A DNA stretch of 62,755 nt, the filler included, from Craspedostauros australis (taxonomy: Eukaryota): the NCBI GenBank assembly GCA_030167865.1. It is 16 parts of 16 records of this genome, joined end to end, with 100 filler letters (N's around TTAATTAATTAA, not from the genome) between each part and the next. Parts side by side here need not be neighbours in the genome. Positions count along the whole stretch, not along the records: positions 40,560 to 50,367 come from JALAGF010005412.1; 15 more parts are not named here. The stretch is one strand, 5' to 3'. Position 1 is the first letter of the stretch, and the number at the start of each line of letters is the position of its first letter. Made by a program: the position numbers and the translations under genes. Under the pieces are notes generated by a model. That model searched no databases. It was not told where the DNA came from and was given only the letters and a program-made list of their open reading frames with translations. Positions 32,579-53,773 of the stretch are shown here, piece by piece.

Positions 32579-35500
32579 CACACATCATATGCGCGCGTCA
32601 GGACTGAACGTCTACGATCGCCTAATTGAACATCAGGGACAGCAGCGGGTCTCATCGGACGATATCAGCATACCACTGGAGAACCATGAAGGCAACACGC
32701 TCCGAATTCCCATCAGAAAGCCAACAGCCCACGAGATGGCGACGGCACGGCATATCATCATATGCGACAGACACCAGCGTCTACGACGCAATGCGGGTCG
32801 GGTCGATTTCAAGCGAATCTTCCGACACCTTCCACCACACGTGGTGGAGAAGACAATGGCGGCGTCCACTCAGCTGGCGGATACTCCGATCAAGGCAGAG
32901 TCAAGACTTATCCCGCGGCAGTATCGAGCGCAGCGAGCAGGAGTGCTGCAACCCAACAGAATCGACGGCAGAGTTGATACGGACACGTTCTTCTCTACCG
33001 TCCAGTCCATCAGGCACTACAAGTGCTTTCAGCTATTCTCGCACAACCAATCGAAATTCATCTGGGCGAAGCCACTGAACCGCGAGGCCATGGCGCCAGG
33101 GGCGCTCACGGATTTCATCATCCGCGTCGGCGCTCCGGATCTGCTCGTATCAGACAATTCGCAGGTGCAATCGGGCAAGGCATGGAAAGCGGTCACATCC
33201 CGCTATCTGATCAAGCATCAGTTCACTGTGCCCATGAATCAGAACCAGAACCACGCAGAACGGGCGATCGGCGATGTCAAGCGGCATGCATACCAGCTTC
33301 TGTGGGCCGCATCGGCTCCACTATCATTCTGGTGCTACGCTGTGCAGCACGCAATCGACGCATGGAATTACACGGCGAAGGCAAGCCTCCAATGGCGCAC
33401 TCCAATCGAGATCCTTCGTGGCAACACTCCCGATATCTCGATGTTTCGCTTCACGTTCTTCCAACCCGTCTGGTTCTTCGAACCCATGACCAAATTTCCC
33501 AACCATCCATTCAAGCCAGGGTACTTCCTTGGCATCGCATGGAACCACGGAGATCCATTCACCTACACTATATGGTCACCACGAGGCGACGACGTCACGA
33601 AGGGCACCGCGCTTGTGCGCAACATCGTCAAGCCGCGTGTCGTCGAAGACGCCGTTCCTCCACGCATCACAGACGCGGAAATCAGCCGCATCGCTCAACT
33701 GGATATCATTCACACCACTACGCGCGGCGAATCCGGCGAACGCGCCAGGACCAAGACTTTGCCGGCGGAACTCGCTCGACAGGTCCGTGAGGCCATCGAC
33801 GCGATTGCTGTGCAGTCAGGGGCGGCGGCGGGTCCACCGGAGCCGGAGACGCAGGAGGTCAGGGGCGTATCCGCTAACAACACGCCAGCAGGCACGGCTG
33901 ACCGATGGTTCGGTCAACCAAACATAATTCCCAACGACGGCGACATGCCGGAACATAATGCACACGGCGTCATCTCGGATGACGACGGCGACGCATCCAC
34001 GGATAACATCTCTGAGGAGACCGATGACTCCGAAGTCACGGCGATGCCAGACCCTCCGGAGCACCGCTCTCAGGGGCGTGAGTCCTCTCTCATTGAGAGA
34101 GAGCATGACGAGCTGTTCCGAAATCAGGTCGAAAACGAGAAATCTGACGACTTGGCAATCAACTCCATCCTCAGCCACGCATTCAGAGACGGACATCTAC
34201 ACTTCAACGTGCAATGGTCCAATACTGAAACGCAATGGTTCCGATATGACGTGATCCGCGCCGACCATCCCGAAATGGTAGCACGATACATCATTGACAA
34301 TGAACCACGACGCAACGGTCGACACAATCGACAATCGCAAGTCCTACTCAAATGGGCGAAACATGCTCTGCGAGCCATCAGGCGTAGAATCAGACGAATC
34401 GAGCAAACTCGAGTCTTCACAACGGATGAGAACAACAACATCATCATCATCAGACGAATCCGTCCAGGCAAGAAGAAGCCGAAACGAGATTACTTCGCCA
34501 CTGTATATCAATACGGTGTCGAGGTCCCACGCAACATGAAGCATGCATTGCAACTGGATGAAGCCAACGGGGATCATCAATGGAGAGACGCAGCGAAGAA
34601 AGAGATCGACGCATTGATCGAACTCGACTGCTTCACATTCCACCCACCGACATACCAACCACCAGCAGACTACCAGAGCACGAAACTCCGACTCATCTTC
34701 GCGGTCAAGCAAGATCTGCGACGCAAGGGGCGCTTGGTAGCAGGCAGGCATCTCATCGAGCTGGCGGACAACATCCGAGTCTACTCATCAACTGTCAAGT
34801 CGACAAGCGTCCGCATCCTTGATGCAATAGCAGATGCAAACAACCTGCAACAGCTATGTGGCGACGTCGGCAACGCATTCGTCAACGCGTACACCAATGA
34901 GAAGATCTACGCGACAGCAGGAAAGGCATTCGACGACAAAGAAGGACAGGTCATTGTGCTCAAGAAAGCACTGTACGGTCTTCAGTCGAGCGCTCAACGA
35001 TTCCATGCACACTTCGCCAATACTCTCTCATCAATGGGATTCACGCCATCCCGCCATGATCAAGATGTATGGATACAGCGCAGAGACAACTCTGGCTACG
35101 ACTACATCTGCACCCACGTGGACGACTTCAAGATAGTCGCCAAAGACCCAGATCAGTACATGAAAGCGATCCNNNNNNNNNNNNNNNNNNNNNNNNNNNN
35201 NNNNNNNNNNNNNNNNNNNNNNNNNNNNNNNNNNNNNNNNNNNNNNNNNNNNNNNNNNNNNNNNNNNNNNNNNNNNNNNNNNNNNNNNNNNNNNNNNNNN
35301 NNNNNNNNNNNNNNNNNNNNNNNNNNNNNNNACTGCATGACCAACATGTGCCCATGAAGAGCAAGGATCATCCGGAAACGGATGATACGCCACTACTAAC
35401 ACCTGACGAGCAACAGCAGTTCCAGCAGCTCATCGGCATGCTGAACTGGGTTGTACAGCTCGGACGTTTCGACGTCGCATTTGCCACCTCTTCTCTCTCA

Positions 35501-36220
35501 CGTTTCACATCTACACCACGAAAAGGGCATCTCACGAGAGCACTTAAGATATGGGGATACCTCAAGAGCAAATCCACGCTGAGAACCATGATTGACTCAA
35601 AGCCCATCGTATTCGAGAACTTCAATCCAGAATCGCCCAACCCGGAGATGGTTGCACAGATGAAGGAAGAGTACCCCGAAGCGGCTGAGGACATTGACGA
35701 TCAGGCACCGGCAGCGATATATCCTGAGATCCAGATGTGTGCATTCGTCGATGCAGACCACGCTCACGATCTGGTCACGCGGAGATCGAACACCGGCATC
35801 ATCATCTTCCTGGGGCGCACCCCTGTGCACTTCTCCAGCAAACGCCAGACATCAGTCGCGACATCAACATACGGAGCAGAATTCAACGCAATGCGCTCGG
35901 CAACCGAGGAAATCATTGCACTCCGATACACACTCCGATCTCTGGGAGTCACAGTCAAAGCGCCAACGATCACGTTCGGCGACAACAATGCAGTGATATC
36001 GAACACGACCATTGCAGACAGCTTGCTTCAAAAGAAGCACGTGGCAATCTCNTTCCACAGAGTCCGCGANGCGGTGGGAGCTGGAATCCTTGTCCCAGTC
36101 TATGTCCCATCGAAGCGGAACTTTGCAGATATGCTCACGAAAGCACTGGCAAAGCCAGAACTCACATCATTTGTCACAACTCTGTTCTATGCAGGTCTAC
36201 CTCGAGATCAAGGGGCGTGA
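32579..36220 (+). CDS. CoDi pol: integrase, chromodomain-like module, RT, RNase H (5' partial; frame broken by gap 35173-35331)
   Basis: VDTDTFFS, LVSDNS, QNQNHAERAIG, CGDVGNAF, KALYGLQSS, THVDD, FVDADHAHDLVTRRS, TSTYGAEF, NFADMLTK. Confidence 0.94.
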
Positions 36221-36324
36221 CAATTCTCACAGAATTCTTTGAGAAAATTCACTAACCAGGTCGTTTTGGAGGCCAAAGTCCACTAACCAGGTCGTTTTGG
36301 TGCCCGACACGATGATTGGATGAC
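36218..36324 (+). repeat. 3' LTR start (U3) of family C, with 20-bp direct repeat CACTAACCAGGTCGTTTTGG x2
   Basis: Follows the short purine tract AAGGGG. The pol TGA stop is the first three LTR bases. Repeats are at 36250 and 36281. Confidence 0.8.
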
Positions 36325-43687: not shown

Positions 43688-45866
43688 TCACTCCTCTTCT
43701 CCAGCGGCAGCGCCATCGGCCTCAGCCACCCTGGAAGGTGCGACGGACCGCACGAGGTTCATCAACGTTGTACGATTCATGTATGAATCCACTTGCGCAG
43801 TACCCTCACTTTCATCCACGACCTTGTACAAATCCATCATGGACATGGCACTGTACTCATCATCAACTTCATTGTTTGCCGCTCTCCCACTGCAGATGGC
43901 ATGAATGCCTTCAATCAGTCGAGGATGTAGAATCAGCTTGCTGCAATCTTCACGAGCGAGTAAAGTCTGCATGTTTCGAGCTGCCATTCTCGTTGCTGCA
44001 TCCTTCAACACCACGCAGTTGTGTTGATCAGCGAAGATCAACGCATCTACCATGGTGTCTTCTGTGAGATGAGTGCGGGCCAACTCTGCTTCAAGAACNN
44101 NNNNNNNNNNNNNNNNNNNNNNNNNNNNNNNNNNNNNNNNNNNNNNNNNNNNNNNNNNNNNNNNNNNNNNNNNNNNAGTTGGCTGGTCAGCGCCATCATC
44201 ATCGTCATGAGCGCCATCGCGGGTATCAGTATCGTTGTCCGGAGTGCTGTGATCGAAGGATATCTCACCTGTGTAGATGCATTCGAGGACACGTTGGACA
44301 TGCTTGGGTTGATGGTTGGGAAGAGGGATGAGCCTGCGGGTGAGGGCAGTGGCAGAATCAGTGCCGTCATCAGTGCCGTCATCGACATGCTGANNNNNNN
44401 NNNNNNNNNNNNNNNNNNNNNNNNNNNNNNNNNNNNNNNNNNNNNNNNNNNNNNNNNNNNNNNNNNNNNNNNNNNNNNNNNNNNNNNNNNNNNNNNNNNN
44501 NNNNNNNNNNNNNNNNNNNNNNNNNCGAACAGCGCTGCGACGATCTTGGTCGATGCTGATGTTGGTTGTTGTGTGGATTTTAGGATTGTTGTGCTTGGTT
44601 GGTGTTGTGATGGTGTTTGTGTTGCTTTGCTTGCGCACCTGCGTCTCTGTTTGCAGCTGTGTCTGCAGTTGCAAGTTGCGACGACTGAGATGACCGAGAC
44701 GCTTCATGATTGATGTCATCATCTTGACCTGCTTGTTCGCNNNNNNNNNNNNNNNNNNNNNNNNNNNNNNNNNNNNNNNNNNNNNNNNNNGGGATGAGCC
44801 TGCGGGTGAGGGCAGTGGCAGAATCAGTGCCGTCATCAGTGCCGTCATCGACATGCTGATGTTGGATTCCCGAGTCGATCAATGTCTGAATGGACGGAAC
44901 AGTGACCATGAGGACTCCGGAGTTTGCTTTGATTGGCTGTTGTTCGTCGCCTTGTCCGCACAGGAAGGTGGTGTCTGCCTTGGCCTCAGACCGAACAGCG
45001 CTGCGACGATCTTGGTCGATGCTGATGTTGGTTGCTGTGTGGATTTTAGGATTGCTGTGCTTGGTTGGTGTTGTGATGGTGTTTGTGTGGCTTTGCTTGC
45101 GCACCTGCATCTCTGTTTGCAGCTGTGTCTGCAGTTGCAAGTTGCGTTGACTGAGATGACCGAGACGCTTCATGATTGATGTCATCATCTTGACCTGATA
45201 TTCCGCTTTGATTAATTCGACGGGTGTTTTGTTGTCGTTGTTTTGGATGTCGATATTGACCTTGGCTGATTCGATGAGGTACTTGACGCATTCAGAATAG
45301 CCGCCGGCGCATGCTCGATGGAGTGGAGTGTCGCCATCGTTGTTCTTGCAGTTGACATCGGCGTTGCATGTTTCGATGAGGTACTTGACACACTCCAGGC
45401 TGCCATAGTAGCATGCTCTATGAAGTGGAGCGTAGCCATCGTCGTTTTTGCAGTTGACATCGGCGTTGGCTGATTCGATGAGGTACTCGACGCATTCAGA
45501 ATGGCCTTCAATGCATGCATCGTGAAGTGGAGTGTTGCCACCTTTGTTCTTGCAGTTGACATCGGCGTTGCATGTTTCGATGAGGTACTTCACACACTCC
45601 AGGCTGCCTTTGCTGCATGCTGTATGAAGTGGAGTGTCGCCATCGCCGTCTTTGACCTTGTTGACATCGGCGTTGGCTGATTCGATGAGGTACTTCACAC
45701 ATTTCAGGCTGCCTCCAACGCATGCTTTATGAAGTGGAGTCCAGCCACAGTAGTCTTTGACCGTGTTGACATCACGTCCTTCATTCTGCTCCTTCCATTC
45801 CTTCAACACCGACAGATCACCTCTCTTGGCAGCATTAAGGAGTTGTTTGTTCGAGACATTCGGCAT
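43688..45866 (-). CDS. Ankyrin repeat + BTB/POZ-BACK protein (putative Cullin3 adaptor)
   Basis: About 6 TPLHxAC ankyrin repeats, BTB-like ADTTFLCG..IKANSGVL..VLECIYTG, BACK-like VDALIFADQHNCVVLKDAA. ATG at 45866. A segment is duplicated across gap 44741-44790. Confidence 0.85.
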
Positions 45867-46094
45867 GTTGGTCGTTGGTTGTTGAGCTGTTGGTAGACAA
45901 ACAATTGCTGGATGATTGCTCAATGTGTTCACGGTCTTATGATGAAGATGCTGACTGATGGTATGAGACCAAACTGTTGCAAGGAATAGCAAGGTTGTTG
46001 TTGTCTTGTTCGCACGTTCTGTTTCTCTGTTCCATGATTGCACTCTTGTTTGTCGTGGAAGAGGTGGTTGGTGCGGATCCTTCTCGACATCCAC

Positions 46095-46264
46095 TGACAA
46101 TTCTCACAGAATTCCTTACTTCTTACTCTTCTACTAATCCTATTAGTCAAATACTGGTCGGGGGCTGTCTTCGGACAGCACTCACAAATAAACAACAAGA
46201 GCTCCGACCAGGGCACGAAACAACGGGCCAATACATCTTTCGTAGTTACTTGCACTGTTTGACA
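46095..46264 (+). repeat. 5' LTR, 170 bp
   Basis: TGACAA...TTTGACA. The first 20 bp equal 36218-36237, and the 3' two thirds resemble 50607-50703. AATAAA is at 46187. Confidence 0.85.
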
Positions 46265-46294
46265 GATTAAGAGTCGTGCTTACCAACACTGAGC
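46265..46294 (+). promoter_or_regulatory. Primer-binding site complementary to the 5' half of tRNA-Lys(CUU)
   Basis: GATTAAGAGTC complements GACUCUUAAUC (nt 30-40 of typical eukaryotic tRNA-Lys CUU). Downstream TGCT, TACC and ACTGAGC complement the D arm. Confidence 0.8.
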
Positions 46295-46333: not shown

Positions 46334-47731
46334 ATGGACCGACCAACCAACATCAACACCTTCAACAAGATCATCCAAGAGCTGGTACAGCTCGATGACG
46401 AGGAGATGGCGTTCATCGGCGAGAAACTCGGGAGAATCAATCGTGTCATCCGCAATCCGGACATCACAATCGTGGCAGCTTTGGCGCTCTCGCCAATGCT
46501 GTCATCAATCAACATCACAAACATCCTCCGCATCTTCGCGTACGCGCGAGCCAACACCATCACTGCACGCACCGATTGGGCAGCAATCGACTTGTTCAAC
46601 GAAGCGAACAGCTACGATCCATCGGCAGTCGGCACGCCAGTTGCGAACGCAGCTGCTCAAGTGCGATCGGAAATGGCGATCAGGGAGGCAGCCGCAGCAG
46701 CGGATGCCACTGGAACCGCGGGTCGCGAAATCACCGCCAGCTCACCGAGCCGCGCGAGACGCACCCCACGGTCACCACGAACCCCACGGACTCCATCAGG
46801 ATGGAAGTTCGACAAGATCAGCATGCCAGAGGCACCTGAGTTCACCGGGAACAACAGCAACTGGTATGACTGGAAGATCGCATTCAAGCGGCAGCTGGTC
46901 ACATCCAGATACGCCGCGTACCTCGAAGTTGACAAGCCATCACACTTCAGCGCGGAGATCGATGCACAGCTCTACACTGTCCTGCACACCAAGACAGAGA
47001 AGGGGTGCGCAGCATTCATCGTGGAAGCGCATGACCCGAACGGCCATGACGCATACCAGGTGCTCGTACGCAACTACGAGTCCGTCGACCACAAAGCTGA
47101 GGCCATCGCAGAAGAAGAACAGAAGATCGCCGAGCTCCGTTACGACGGATCAGAGCCCTTCCCAGTCTTCGTCAATGACTTCTCCAAATGCATCCGTGTC
47201 ATGGAGCAGAACGGAAAGCAGATGACCGACCAGCAGAAGATCGCGAAGTTCTTTCGCAACATTACCGACGATCGCTTCACAAGCGAGATGTCCAGATTCC
47301 GTAACACGGAACAATCCTTCAACACAATCCGCGAGGCATTCATGCAACATGATGCGCTACTCACGAAGTCGGAAGGACACTACTCTCCCAAGCGCAACCG
47401 TCGCTACCAGCAGAAGGACAACAAGGACGATCGCAAGAGGCCACGCGAATCCTCCAAGTGGGATCGCAAGGGCGCCGCATCGTTTCGGTTGCCGGACTCC
47501 GTCTTCCGTCGCATGCCGGTGAGCACTCAAGTGCTCCTCGTCGAAGCGTCTCGTCACTTCCGCACCACGGGGAAACCAATCGATGAGGAAACCCTCAAGC
47601 GCAACAAGCCAGCAGACTATGCGCGCAACCTCGAGTTGCCCATGACCCAGCGAGGGCCCAAGCGGCCTCGCACGGGCGATCACAAGACCAGACGATCCGG
47701 CACCCAAGGACCATGGAACGCCGGTTCTTGA
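46334..47731 (+). CDS. CoDi gag (465 aa)
   Basis: GCCACCATGG start; PEFTGNNSNWYDWK, NGHDAYQVL and LRYDG gag-like motifs; lies directly after the PBS. Confidence 0.85.
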   Translation: MDRPTNINTFNKIIQELVQLDDEEMAFIGEKLGRINRVIRNPDITIVAALALSPMLSSINITNILRIFAYARANTITARTDWAAIDLFNEANSYDPSAVGTPVANAAAQVRSEMAIREAAAAADATGTAGREITASSPSRARRTPRSPRTPRTPSGWKFDKISMPEAPEFTGNNSNWYDWKIAFKRQLVTSRYAAYLEVDKPSHFSAEIDAQLYTVLHTKTEKGCAAFIVEAHDPNGHDAYQVLVRNYESVDHKAEAIAEEEQKIAELRYDGSEPFPVFVNDFSKCIRVMEQNGKQMTDQQKIAKFFRNITDDRFTSEMSRFRNTEQSFNTIREAFMQHDALLTKSEGHYSPKRNRRYQQKDNKDDRKRPRESSKWDRKGAASFRLPDSVFRRMPVSTQVLLVEASRHFRTTGKPIDEETLKRNKPADYARNLELPMTQRGPKRPRTGDHKTRRSGTQGPWNAGS

Positions 47732-50367
47732 CAATCAAAGACGGGCACAACTCGCCGTCAGTCGGAGATTGTCATCCACCNNNNNNNNNNNNNNNNNNNN
47801 NNNNNNNNNNNNNNNNNNNNNNNNNNNNNNGGGCGAGCGTGACGACCGCAGCGGGAATGCCCGGACGTGCACGTCCGGTGGCACCACAAGAGTCCCGTCC
47901 GTGCACAACCCACCTGACAGTGGAGCATTGCATCCGAAGGGCGAGAGTAACGAACAATAGCCAAGGCTTTATCATCCTAGACTCAGGGGCGGACGGAGAC
48001 ATCGTTCATGCGTCGGGCTGGGAGGTGACCCACACACACCAACAAGAGTTTCGTGCCCGAGGGGCGACGATCAACTCACCAATCGAGACATTCCAAATGG
48101 TCGACGCGGTGGCAGCATACGAGCCCCCATCAGGCGGCGTGATCCTCATCAAAGCGAACTACGTGGCTCTCGACAAGCATCCACAGCAGACGGAATCACT
48201 GTTTAACACACATCATATGCGCGCGTCCGGACTGAACGTCTACGATCGCCTCATTGAACATCAGGGACAGCAGCGGGTCTCATCGGACGAAATCAGCATA
48301 CCACTGGAGAACCATGAAGGCAACACGCTCCGAATTCCCATCCGAAAGCCGACAGCCCACGAGATGGCAACGGCACGGCATATCATCATATGCGACAGAC
48401 ATCAGCGTCTACGACGCAATGCGGGTCGGGTTGATTTCACGCGAATCTTCCGACACCTTCCACCACACGTGGTGGAGAAAACCATGGCGGCATCCACTCA
48501 GCTGGCGGATACTCCGATCGAGGCAGAGTCAAGACTTATCCCGCGGCAGTATCGGGCGCAGCGAGCAGGCGTGCTGCAACCCACCAGAATCGACGGCAGA
48601 GTTGACACGGACACGTTCTTCTCTACCGTCCAGTCCATCAGACACTACAAGTGTTTCCAACTATTCTCGCATCACCAATCGAAATTCATCTGGGCGAAGC
48701 CACTGAGCCGCGAGGCCATGGCGCCAGGGGCGCTAACGGACTTCATCATCCGCGTCGGCGCTCCGGATCTACTCGTTTCAGACAATTCGCAGGTGCAATC
48801 GGGCAAGGCATGGAAAGCGGTCACATCCCGCTATCTGATCAAGCACCAGTTCACTGTGCCCATGAATCAGAACCAGAACCACGCAGAACGGGCGATCGGC
48901 AATGTCAAGCGACATGCATACCAGCTTCTGTGGGCCGCCTCGGCGCCACTCTCATTCTGGTGCTATGCTGTGCAACACGCGATCGACACATGGAACTACA
49001 CGGCGAAGGCGAGCCTCCAATGGCGCACTCCAATTGAGATTCTTCGCGGCAACACTCCCGACATCTCGATGTTTCGCTTCACGTTCTTCCAACCCGTATG
49101 GTTCTTCGAACCCATGACCAAATTTCCCAACCATCCANNNNNNNNNNNNNNNNNNNNNNNNNNNNNNNNNNNNNNNNNNNNNNNNNNCCGCTATCTGATC
49201 AAGCACCAGTTCACTGTGCCCATGAATCAGAACCAGAACCACGCAGAACGGGCGATCGGCAATGTCAAGCGACATGCATACCAGCTTCTGTGGGCCGCCT
49301 CGGCGCCACTCTCATTCTGGTGCTATGCTGTGCAACACGCGATCGACACATGGAACTACACGGCGAAGGCGAGCCTCCAATGGCGCACTCCAATTGAGAT
49401 TCTTCGCGGCAACACTCCCGACATCTCNATGTTTCGCTTCACGTTCTTCCANCCCGTNTGGTTCTTCGAACCCATGACCAAATTTCCCAACCATCCATTC
49501 AAGCCAGGGTACTTCCTTGGCATCGCATGGAACCACGGCGACCCATTCACCTACACCATATGGTCTCCACGAGGTGATGACGTCGCGAAGGGCACCGCGC
49601 TTGTGCGAAACATCGTCAAGCCGCGTGTCGTCGAAGACGCCATTCCTCCACGCATCACAGATGCGGAGATCAACCGTATCGCTAAGCTCGATATCATCCA
49701 CACCACTACGCGCGGCGAATCCGGCGAACGCGCCAGAGCCAAGACATTGCCGGCGGAACTCGCTCGACAGGTCCGCGAGGCCATCGACGCGATTGCCATG
49801 CAGTCAGGGGCGGCGGCGGGCCCACCGGAGCCGGAGACGCAGGAGGTCAGGGGCGTATCCGAGAATAACACGCCAGCAGGCACGGCTGACCGATGGTTCG
49901 GTCAACCAAACATAATTCCCAACGACGGCGGCATGCTGGAACATAATGCACACGGCGTCATCTCAGATGACGACGGCGACGCATCCACGGGTAACATCTC
50001 TGTGGAGATCGATGACTCCAAAGTCACGGCGATGCCAGATCCTCCGGAGCACCGCTCTCAGGGGCGTGAGTCCTCTCTCATCGAGAGAGAGCATGACGAG
50101 CTGTTCCGAAATCAGGTCGAAAACGAGAAATCTGACGACTTGGCAATCAACTCCATCCTCAGCCACGCATTCAGAGACGGACATCTACACTTCAATGTGC
50201 AATGGTCCAATACTGAAACGCAATGGTTCCGATATGACGTGATCCGAGCCGACCATCCCGAAATGGTAGCACGATACATCATTGACAACGAACCACGACG
50301 CAACGGTCGACACAATCGACAATCACAAGTCCTACTCAAGTGGGCAAAGCATGCACTGCGAGCCATC
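47732..50367 (+). CDS. CoDi pol: protease, integrase, chromodomain-like module (3' partial)
   Basis: IILDSGADGDIV protease and DDE integrase. The junction with gag is obscured by gap 47781-47830. Confidence 0.9.
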
Positions 50368-50467: not shown

Positions 50468-50703
50468 GATATGCTCACAAAGGCATTGGCGCGGCCAACA
50501 CTAACCACTTCCGTCACAGCTCTGTTCTACAGGGGTCATCCTCAAGATCAACAGGTGTGACAGCTTTCACTGTACATCTTACCTTTTTACTATTCGTATT
50601 AATCGGAAATACTGGTCAGAGATCGTCGTCGAACGACTCACAATACAACAACAAGAGCTCCGACCAGGGCACGCAACAACGGGCCAATACGTCTTCAGTA
50701 GTT
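50468..50703 (+). mobile_element. 3' end of a sister family C element: RNase H C-terminus and 3' LTR from 50558
   Basis: DMLTKALARPTLTTSVTALFY aligns with 36128-36190. The TGA stop is again the LTR start. Shares CAACAAGAGCTCCGACCAGGGCACG with the 46095 LTR. Confidence 0.85.
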
Positions 50704-51766: not shown

Positions 51767-52450
51767 AAGAGTCACAACAGAATTTGACACCGCACAAAAA
51801 GTCGGAAAGCGAACATCGCAATACACAAGGCCACCAGTGACGCTATTGCACTCGCGCTATACCTTGTGACTCGTACCTGCTCCATAGGCATCCATCATAA
51901 TTGCTCGTGAAAGCGCTGTGTGGTAGATAAGAGGTGGCATATATGTTGTGAACCGATCGAAGGCGAGAAGTTGTTCTCAGGCAATCGTTCCAAAACCAAC
52001 ACTCACTTTTTGGCCCTAGCGATAGGAGAAATCGTCTTCTCTTTGTTGGAGGAATCAATCAGGGCTCTAAGTGAAGAACCGAGATGATGGCAGCATCGCG
52101 AGCCTTCTTTGCTCTGTGGGATGCACACAGATGGAGATTGCTCGTCCGGTGGTGAAAGCAGAAGCGCTATCTGTTGGTACTTTCGCAACCTATTCATTCA
52201 GATTATATGTATGAAGAGGATGCGCGGAATAAAACATAGCACCACAATCGCAGCAGAATGAAGGAGTCACCAACTCCAACACAAGTCGGAATACGCGTTT
52301 GTTCGCAATAACTCACCTTCATTGCAGCAATCATCATCCTGAACTCATAAAATCAGCTTCAGCATCAACTCGAGCAACATACAAATCAACACACGCAAGC
52401 ATCTGCAACACTGATCTTGGACCCACAGATCAAGTCCACGTACATCAACC

Positions 52451-53773
52451 ATGAAGATCATCATCGCATCAGCCCTTGGAGCAGCCCTCCTCCTTCTAGC
52501 CCCCGACGTGGCCACGGCACGAGGTGGCGGTCGTGGTCGTGGTCGTCGCGGTGGCGGTGGCGGTGGCCGTGGTAGCGGTGGCCGTGGTCCCCCACATGGA
52601 AGGCCACCCAAAGGCCGTGATCCCCCACGTGGAAGGCCACCAAAAGGCCGTGACAACATATTCTCTGGAGGCAATAAGCCATTCGAGTTCGAGCTTGACA
52701 ACATCACCTGCGCCGAAGAATTCACTTGCGACCTTCCAATGGGACGTGGCAAGCGCGGCATGGACGATGACGAGACCACCGAAGGTGTCTTCGTCTGCCG
52801 CACCAAGTTCCATCCTCTCATCGGTACCAACACGACCTCGACCCTGTGCGTGCCAACCGACGAGGCATGGGAATTGGACGATTGCGGCTGCTGTGAAGAT
52901 GACTGTCCAGTCAAGCCGGACTTCACCAACAGCACGTGCAACAACACCGAGGTTCTCTCAGACTTTGGCGAGCCGGACCGCTACCTCAAGCGACGTGGAG
53001 ATTTCAATGCTGGATCTCGTGGCCGCCGAGACAGAGGCAGAGGCCGAGGCCGAGGCAAGCGCGGACGTCCTGACAAGGATTTGGACGTGATCTGCAGAGA
53101 AGTGTTCAATCCATTCACAAGAGATGTGGTCAACAAGACATTTGTCATCCGAGAAAACCGTGGCTTGGCGGGCGACGTTTGTGGTTGCTGCGACGACACC
53201 TGCCCAGAGGATTTCAAGGGCGAACAGTTCGAAAAGCCTACCTTGGTGAATGCTACTTGCACAGTTGAAGAGGTGACCACATGCGTGCTGCCAAAGCGTG
53301 GCGGTGGCCGCGGCAAGCGAGGTGGAAACAAGGGCCGCCGCGGCGGCAGAGGCCGAGGCCGAGGACGAGATGACAGCAGCGATGATAGCAGTGATGACAG
53401 CAGTGATGACGATGACGACGAAGCGGAGGAGGGATTGTTCATGTGCCGCGAAACATTCGACCCATTGACTGGCGTTTCTCAAACGAAGACCGTATGCGTT
53501 GCTGAGGATGCTACGTGGGAATCCGACGCCTGCGGTTGCTGTGGAGACGAATGCCCACAGCGTCGCGATGATCAGTTCATGGAGTCGACTTGCCAAGTAG
53601 ATGACATGGCCTTGTGCGTCCTTCGTTCCGGCGACCAAGGCCAATACGTGTGCCGTCCATTCTTCAACCCACAGACCGGAGAAGTCGCATCCACCAGCTC
53701 TGTGTGCATTCCATCTGACAGGTTCTTGCCGAATGACACCTGTGGATGCTGCGCTGATTCTGGATGCCCATAG
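52451..53773 (+). CDS. Secreted protein with four Cys-rich CGCCxxxCP modules and RGG-rich and Asp/Ser-rich inserts (440 aa)
   Basis: Signal peptide MKIIIASALGAALLLLAPDVATA; four repeats of CRxxFxPxxG...DxCGCCxxxCP; intact ORF. Confidence 0.9.
   Translation: MKIIIASALGAALLLLAPDVATARGGGRGRGRRGGGGGGRGSGGRGPPHGRPPKGRDPPRGRPPKGRDNIFSGGNKPFEFELDNITCAEEFTCDLPMGRGKRGMDDDETTEGVFVCRTKFHPLIGTNTTSTLCVPTDEAWELDDCGCCEDDCPVKPDFTNSTCNNTEVLSDFGEPDRYLKRRGDFNAGSRGRRDRGRGRGRGKRGRPDKDLDVICREVFNPFTRDVVNKTFVIRENRGLAGDVCGCCDDTCPEDFKGEQFEKPTLVNATCTVEEVTTCVLPKRGGGRGKRGGNKGRRGGRGRGRGRDDSSDDSSDDSSDDDDDEAEEGLFMCRETFDPLTGVSQTKTVCVAEDATWESDACGCCGDECPQRRDDQFMESTCQVDDMALCVLRSGDQGQYVCRPFFNPQTGEVASTSSVCIPSDRFLPNDTCGCCADSGCP

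What the first reader, a model, noticed from the sequence alone, without database searches (positions are those of the whole stretch)
47720..47780. gag stop UGA-CAA-UCA: a readthrough context held in an RNA stem
Seen: gag ends TCT TGA CAA TCA and the same frame stays open (QSKTGTTRRQSEIVIH) up to the N gap. TGACAATC (47729-36) is the perfect complement of GATTGTCA (47767-74) and encloses a GACGG/CCGTC hairpin. I see no -1 slippery heptamer. Known: stop-CARYYA is the tobamovirus-type leaky-stop signal, most Copia elements have one gag-pol ORF, and Tca2 separates gag and pol by an in-frame UGA. Inference: Pol is made by programmed readthrough, and the -1 offset in the ORF track is an artefact of the 50-N gap.
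Basis: partly seen in the sequence, partly recalled or inferred. Interest (0 to 1): 0.75.

Follow-up and report, generated by a model that had tools for sequence, protein, structure and literature searches.

The report
Leaky gag stop in Copia family
A family of jumping genes, probably from a diatom, separates its coat gene from its enzyme gene by one stop codon followed by a leak signal known from plant viruses, so the enzymes are most likely made when ribosomes occasionally read through the stop, a known trick in a new and tidy form.

Summary
The site is the gag-pol junction of a Ty1/Copia LTR retrotransposon. Sister copies show that the 50-N gap stands for about 21 nt, which puts pol in the gag frame. 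All 50 of 50 readable junctions in this genome have a stop (49 UGA, 1 UAA), and 46 of 50 have CAAYCA after it, across five subfamilies whose Gag is only about 45% identical. The second codon switches between Ser (UCA) and Pro (CCA) but stays YYA. No shared AUG, slippery site or intron was found. Programmed readthrough is the best reading (0.85); it is inferred, not measured. A helix better supported by covariation, 47722-26 with 47844-48, may close a three-way junction around the stop (about 0.5); its role is unknown. The frame of this particular copy stays open, because 4 of 17 sisters lost a base inside the gap. Gag-stop-pol is known (Tca2, VdLTRE5, Tj1), and this scan noted it before in other diatom-type genomes. 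The full CARYYA hexamer at a Copia gag-pol junction was not found in my 10 paper searches, but three key papers were unreadable.

The parts
46095..46264 (+). 5' LTR (about 170 bp, TG...CA ends)
   Evidence: Start matches the 3' LTR start of the second copy at 36218, right after a polypurine tract; the end abuts the primer site. Ends inferred; no target-site duplication could be checked.
46265..46279 (+). Primer-binding site complementary to the anticodon arm of host tRNA-Lys(CUU) (half-tRNA priming inferred)
   Evidence: 15-nt exact complement of tRNA-Lys(CTT) genes of this genome
46334..47731 (+). gag, 465 aa, ends in TGA
   Evidence: ORF; weak Pfam TYA, E 0.042, below cut-off; best outside relative P0010 hits Retrotran_gag_2, E 9e-9
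47722..47726 (+). 5' arm of candidate helix P1 (-7..-3 from the stop)
   Evidence: Compensatory changes with 47844-48 across five subfamilies
47729..47731 (+). In-frame UGA between gag and pol
   Evidence: Stop in 50 of 50 junctions, UGA in 49
47732..47737 (+). CAAUCA, a CAR-YYA hexamer
   Evidence: CAAYCA in 46 of 50 junctions; Ser/Pro swap keeps YYA
47740..47759 (+). Small hairpin GACGG/CCGTC starting 8 nt after the stop
   Evidence: Kept 5/5 in 16 of 17 A, 5 of 5 B and 2 of 5 E copies; 2-4/5 in C and D
47767..47774 (+).
   Evidence: 8/8 only in A; one pair switches U-A/C-G together in 37 of 37 copies
47781..47830 (.). Assembly gap of 50 N; 21 nt in most sister copies, containing a G run prone to one-base loss
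47844..47848 (+). 3' arm of candidate helix P1 (+86..+90 in ungapped sisters)
47732..50367 (+). pol: protease (Asp of DSG at 47980), integrase; cut by further gaps before RT
   Evidence: ORF; profile A1 hits solved integrase cores weakly, E 9e-4; RVT_2 E 7e-14 in the second copy, downstream of the integrase-like part

Best explanation
A multi-copy Ty1/Copia LTR retrotransposon family, probably of a diatom, carries gag and pol in one frame split by a single UGA. Most ribosomes stop and release Gag; a few percent insert an amino acid by near-cognate tRNA and make Gag-Pol, which sets the Gag excess needed for particle assembly. The main signal is the CAR-YYA hexamer, perhaps helped by a hairpin 8 nt downstream. 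Shown: the layout, the frame in sister copies, conservation of stop and hexamer, coding-type selection on both sides of the stop. Inferred: readthrough itself, its level, the inserted residue, any role of RNA structure.
For: Stop in 50 of 50 junctions, CAAYCA in 46 of 50; protease Asp in frame with the stop in 37 of 45 determinable copies. Five subfamilies, Gag 45-47% identical to the window's. Background: third positions are invariant across five subfamilies at 26 of 188 four-fold codons, 6 of 77 where the residue changes, and 2 of 15 Gln codons (both CAG); stop, +1 and +2 are all invariant while codon -1 varies (first of three sets). pN/pS in frame 0 is 0.56 just before the stop, 0.50 for codons +1..+20 and 0.65 for +1..+59, against 0.89-1.07 in the other frames. 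No AUG shared by the subfamilies between stop and protease. The hexamer is lost only in 4 copies of subfamily C, a subfamily whose 6 examined copies share a one-base protease deletion. Control: 8 of 20 stretches of other Copia families in this genome run open from gag through integrase. CAR-YYA as a readthrough signal: PMC3159437, PMC2194720, PMC2754532.
Against: No translation data. The described motif is generally UAG-CAR-YYA, here the stop is UGA. Tca2, the nearest Copia case, gave no readthrough from its junction in S. cerevisiae. All 50 junctions come from one genome, and only five subfamilies are independent; the closest outside relative has gag and pol called as separate proteins but no DNA could be seen. 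8 of 45 copies are out of frame at the protease Asp and 4 more (subfamily D) are shifted in between. A related clade keeps UGA followed mostly by A, not a leaky context, so an in-frame UGA need not depend on this hexamer.
Confidence: 0.85

Rival explanations
1. Pol is made separately, from an internal promoter, re-initiation or internal ribosome entry near the junction, and the conserved RNA structure serves that.
For: Tca2 has a minor junction promoter. Some copies have an in-frame AUG before the protease, for example codon 33 in many A copies. A candidate structure spans the junction.
Against: The AUG positions differ between subfamilies (3, 33, 64) and are missing in some copies. Coding-type selection starts at codon +1 and the 74-codon spacing is kept. 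Neither is expected without a fusion protein.
Confidence: 0.07
2. A rare splice or RNA edit removes the stop and yields a gag-pol mRNA.
For: One conserved GT at -112 would give an in-frame join to two downstream AGs in five tested copies. Splicing controls Gag/Pol in Drosophila copia.
Against: That GT has no donor consensus and is absent from the window copy; the would-be intron shows coding-type selection on both sides of the stop.
Confidence: 0.04
3. The stop is an old nonsense mutation inherited by a dead or non-autonomous family.
For: Two of five subfamilies (C, D) spread despite shared frameshifts. A private CGA-to-TGA stop is seen in an unrelated metagenome copy, L069 against L099/L102.
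Against: Pol is under purifying selection between subfamilies after the stop (pN/pS 0.26 protease, 0.19 integrase), with open frames up to 1412 codons; no copy with a sense codon was found among 50.
Confidence: 0.03
4. UGA is reassigned to a sense codon in this host.
For: Several Copia lineages here carry one in-frame TGA.
Against: Trp is always TGG in the ORFs counted (6 in gag, 8 and 11 in pol; no TGA), and the TGA occurs at one place only; other families have none.
Confidence: 0.01

Closest known systems
Tca2 of Candida albicans (Ty1/Copia; PMC2194720)
   Same: Copia element with gag-UGA-pol in one frame and a predicted structure 3' of the stop
   Different: Tca2 lacks CARYYA (PMC3441728) and its junction did not read through in S. 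cerevisiae; here the hexamer is complete and conserved
VdLTRE5 of Verticillium dahliae (Copia; PMC3441728)
   Same: gag and pol separated by UGA
   Different: Two copies, lacks CARYYA; fungal
Tj1, Tcry1, Tosmo1-3 of fission yeasts (bioRxiv 10.1101/2022.12.06.519325)
   Same: Conserved in-frame TGA between gag and pol; the stop is essential for Tj1 transposition
   Different: Ty3/Gypsy elements; context GAA-TGA-CT, not CARYYA
Type I (tobamovirus-like) readthrough signal, generally UAG-CAA-UYA (PMC3159437)
   Same: CAR-YYA right after the stop
   Different: Stop is UGA; CCA variant common; in a retrotransposon; possible extra structure, which tobamovirus-like sites mostly lack
SIRE1 of soybean (Sirevirus, Copia)
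   Same: Copia element using stop-codon suppression (PMC2829016); CARYYA context recalled from Havecker and Voytas 2003, paper not held
   Different: Stop lies between pol and env and is recalled as UAG; here between gag and pol
CoDi elements of diatoms (PMC2806351)
   Same: Copia order; relatives include a Chaetoceros protein; the paper notes one or no stop codon/frameshift between gag and pol
   Different: No mechanism was given in the parts read; I could not assign a CoDi group

Membership tests
Ty1/Copia LTR retrotransposon | pol order PR-IN-RT-RH with Copia-type RT | tested here: met
   DSG motif, then integrase-like core (weak), then RVT_2 E 7e-14 in the second copy; RNase H not detected by Pfam
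Ty1/Copia LTR retrotransposon | LTRs with TG...CA ends, primer site, polypurine tract | tested here: met
   5' LTR and tRNA-Lys primer site; polypurine tract and LTR start in copy 2
Ty1/Copia LTR retrotransposon | Paired LTRs and target-site duplication of this copy | tested here: inconclusive
   The contig ends at 50367; the LTR at 50557 lies beyond gaps and differs in sequence
CoDi group (diatom Copia) | RT phylogeny with named CoDi references | not testable with these tools
   No reference sequences held; supplement unreadable
gag-pol stop-readthrough retroelement | gag and pol in one frame split by one conserved stop | tested here: met
   50 of 50 stops; 37 of 45 in frame
gag-pol stop-readthrough retroelement | Gag-Pol fusion made by decoding the stop | not testable with these tools
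   Needs reporter, profiling or proteomics
Type I (tobamovirus-like) signal | CAR-YYA directly after the stop | tested here: met
   46 of 50
Type I (tobamovirus-like) signal | Stop codon generally UAG | tested here: not met
   UGA in 49 of 50 against PMC3159437
Structure-stimulated readthrough (MuLV or alphavirus type) | Conserved stem or pseudoknot starting about 8 nt 3' of the stop, with compensatory changes | tested here: inconclusive
   A 5-bp hairpin starts at that distance in A, B and part of E, without double changes; folds from +9 give z 0.65 to -2.3 in 7 copies; no Rfam match

The most novel reading that the evidence does not exclude
The UGA and its CAR-YYA hexamer sit inside a conserved three-way RNA junction closed by a helix that starts upstream of the stop. 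The arriving ribosome must melt it, which frees the 3' strands to refold into the readthrough stimulator, so the structure works as a switch between translation and another use of the RNA such as packaging. Together with two other Copia lineages that carry gag-UGA-pol in different contexts, this would mean UGA readthrough arose or was re-tuned several times in algal Copia elements.
Probability: 0.2. Interest if true: 0.75.

Novelty: new variant of a known kind. Interest (0 to 1): 0.5.

Why it matters
Copia elements usually have one gag-pol ORF, and in Tca2, the one studied Copia gag-stop-pol case I could read about, the bypass mechanism is unresolved. This family gives a clean test case: a textbook plant-virus signal at a gag-pol junction, with natural variants (UCA/CCA, hexamer loss, UAA) to use as controls. 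It would also be a direct way to ask whether diatom ribosomes read through CAR-YYA. In practice, annotation pipelines would call these copies broken or split when they may be intact.

Tried and rejected
Sequencing runs: none was listed for a sister copy, so no reads were laid; this is no evidence on expression, and the gap of this copy was not closed. Outside DNA for the clade: none from metagenome contigs with the single protein, prokaryote genomes or viral contigs with P0010; gag search among near-length proteins gave nothing. Rfam: 0 matches at E <= 1. The second copy in the window lacks its junction behind a gap. A -1 frameshift was rejected: no in-register heptamer, and the GGGAAAC at 47570 is in the wrong register. 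Third-position conservation over codons 0-14 is raised but not exceptional: 35 of 716, 48 of 465 and 11 of 621 other windows reach it. L069 (TGA CAAGTC) looked like a parallel case but appears private. Gao 2003, Havecker and Voytas 2003 and Havecker 2004 are not held. The supplement of PMC2806351, which lists ORF layouts of CoDi families, could not be read and may bear on novelty.

Full report
Observation. The sequence is as described. TGA lies at 47729-31 and ends a 465-aa ORF from ATG 46334; CAATCA follows; the frame is open to the 50 N at 47781-47830; both complementarities are exact. The local fold alone is marginal: z = -1.94, 10 of 200 shuffles, and weaker in three other windows.

What the element is. 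A Ty1/Copia LTR retrotransposon: LTR 46095-46264, a 15-nt primer site complementary to the anticodon arm of the host tRNA-Lys(CUU), gag, then protease (DSG), integrase, and, in a second copy at 32580-36220, RVT_2 (E 7e-14). Integrase support is weak but consistent. The host is probably a diatom; this is inferred from relatives (a Chaetoceros protein; an Atlas cluster labelled Bacillariophyta from one member) and was not established.

The gap. A DNA search of the window's genome gave 55 matches. In most subfamily-A sisters the two flanks of the gap are 21 nt apart, so the protease Asp lies 222 nt after the stop, in frame, against 251 in the window. Gap sizes in this scaffold are nominal: the next 50-N gap is flanked by a duplicated stretch. 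The gap holds a G run that is a base shorter in 4 of 17 readable A sisters, so the frame of this copy is likely but unproven.

Conservation of the signal. I read 50 junctions, one per contig, from five subfamilies (A-E) whose Gag is 45-47% identical to the window's for B, C and E. Searches located them by protein or DNA similarity, not by the motif; loci that ended before the junction were dropped (L050; L136, L139-141, L146, L149). All 50 have a stop (49 TGA, 1 TAA); 46 have CAAYCA and 4 have AAACCA. The Asp is in frame in 37 of 45, out of frame in 8, and 5 cannot be read; 4 of the 37 (subfamily D) are shifted in between and regain frame. Codon +2 is Ser or Pro but always YCA. In the background, third positions are invariant over five subfamilies at 26 of 188 four-fold codons, 6 of 77 when the residue changes, and 2 of 15 Gln codons. 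The four copies without the hexamer belong to subfamily C, whose six examined copies share a protease frameshift; the four themselves were not checked for it. The stretch after the stop evolves as coding sequence in frame 0: pN/pS 0.50 for +1..+20 and 0.65 for +1..+59, against about 1 in the other frames. No AUG is shared before the protease, no slippery heptamer is in register and no good conserved intron was found.

RNA structure. A blind search over a 2.5-kb alignment of 10 copies found another helix, -7..-3 with +86..+90 (window 47722-26 with 47844-48): the only one of 73 helices of 5 bp or more with over two double changes. Codon -2 is the exact reverse complement of codon +29 in all five subfamilies with four different states, the only such case among 379,086 triplet pairs. 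It is 5/5 in 30 and 4/5 in 5 of 35 readable copies. Folded from -12 to +96, a window chosen after the fact, this helix is in the best structure for 4 of 9 copies and within 1.1 kcal/mol for 3 more, closing a three-way junction in A and C. Against it: in a 210-nt window its pairing probability is 0.04 or less in 8 of 9 copies; four C copies mismatch one covarying pair; the changes are transitions among five related lineages. I put its reality at about 0.5. Any helix that holds the stop or upstream bases must be open when the stop is decoded, so it cannot be a classical 3' stimulator. The small hairpin that starts 8 nt after the stop fits the spacing of known stimulators but shows no double changes.

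Wider distribution. On an integrase tree of 44 rows (three short rows dropped) A-E form a clade (100/100) with sister P0001. P0001 and the best outside Gag hit P0010 are separate called proteins whose longest contig is 5877 bp in both cases, so probably one element; a Gag of the same cluster comes from an MMETSP transcript. Their DNA was not seen. Of 56 metagenome loci I examined 39: 12 form a separate clade with an in-frame TGA 13-33 codons before the protease anchor, 11 of them TGA-A; several others have one long ORF. In the window's genome 8 of 20 fetched stretches of other Copia families are single ORFs, and another distant lineage has one TGA in the matched junction in nearly all of 42 matches, TGA-C in 24 of 24 readable loci, never CARYYA. 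Whether these are separate origins was not tested.

Mechanism. Leaky termination at UGA-CAR-YYA gives a small share of Gag-Pol (0.85). Layout, frame, conservation and selection are shown; decoding, level and structural help are inferred. Rivals: separate pol initiation 0.07, splicing or editing 0.04, dead family 0.03, recoded UGA 0.01.

What is known. Read: PMC2194720 (abstract, Background, Discussion), PMC2806351 (passages, sections 6, 17, 18; supplement unreadable), and passages of PMC3441728, PMC3159437, PMC2829016, bioRxiv 10.1101/2022.12.06.519325 (74), PMC5009743, PMC2754532. Gag-stop-pol is known in Tca2, VdLTRE5 and fission-yeast Tj1/Tosmo; Tca2 and VdLTRE5 lack CARYYA. CoDi elements were noted to have one or no stop or frameshift between gag and pol, with no mechanism in the parts read. 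That SIRE1 uses CARYYA at pol-env is recalled, and I recall that RIRE2 and Kamikaze were listed as gag-stop-pol cases, possibly with this motif; those papers are not held. Ten searches found no report of readthrough in a diatom retrotransposon or of CARYYA at a Copia gag-pol junction; the library lacks most subscription papers. This scan already noted gag-UGA-pol in four diatom-type elements from other genomes; no look-alike of this sequence was on record.

Verdict. Real and well supported by comparison; a new variant of a known kind. The distinctive points are the complete hexamer under visible selection and the candidate three-way junction. Interest 0.5.

Noticed in passing
G000:C3180 (L134, stop at 2732) and L156-L180: A second, distant Copia lineage in the same genome has gag-TGA-C-pol: TGA-C in 24 of 24 readable loci, without CARYYA.
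   Followed up: partly
L072, L074, L076, L083-L088, L090, L091, L101 (metagenome loci): A clade of Copia elements with an in-frame TGA 13-33 codons before the protease anchor, 11 of 12 followed by A, which is not a usual leaky context; mechanism unexplained.
   Followed up: partly
window 46265-46279: Primer site matches the anticodon arm of tRNA-Lys(CUU), not a tRNA 3' end, which suggests half-tRNA priming.
   Followed up: yes
L021, L023-L026, L029 (subfamily C); L027, L055-L057, L150-L152 (subfamily D): Whole subfamilies share a frameshift (C in the protease, D in the G run after the stop) yet are multi-copy: likely non-autonomous spread.
   Followed up: partly
window 47781-47830 (by sisters): The G run inside the gap is a one-base-loss hot spot in subfamilies A, B and D; slippage or assembly error not told apart.
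   Followed up: partly
window 32580-36250: Second copy of the element: pol with RT, polypurine tract and start of the 3' LTR; gag and junction missing behind a gap.
   Followed up: yes
window 44580-46103 (-): Ankyrin-repeat ORF whose upstream end abuts the 5' LTR; part of its 3' region is duplicated at 43688-44878 across gaps.
   Followed up: partly
P0001 residues 646-687: Weak chromodomain hit (E 0.015, below cut-off) between integrase and RT in the closest outside relative; the window pol has a similar stretch near 50170-50290. Unusual for Copia if real.
   Followed up: no
window 52415-53773 (+): 452-aa ORF with a signal-peptide-like start, Gly/Arg-rich stretches and repeated Cys-rich modules, resembling diatom cell-wall proteins from recall.
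   Followed up: no
codons +60..+80 after the stop (protease active site): Third-position conservation peaks here (0.72-0.77), higher than at the stop; unexplained.
   Followed up: no
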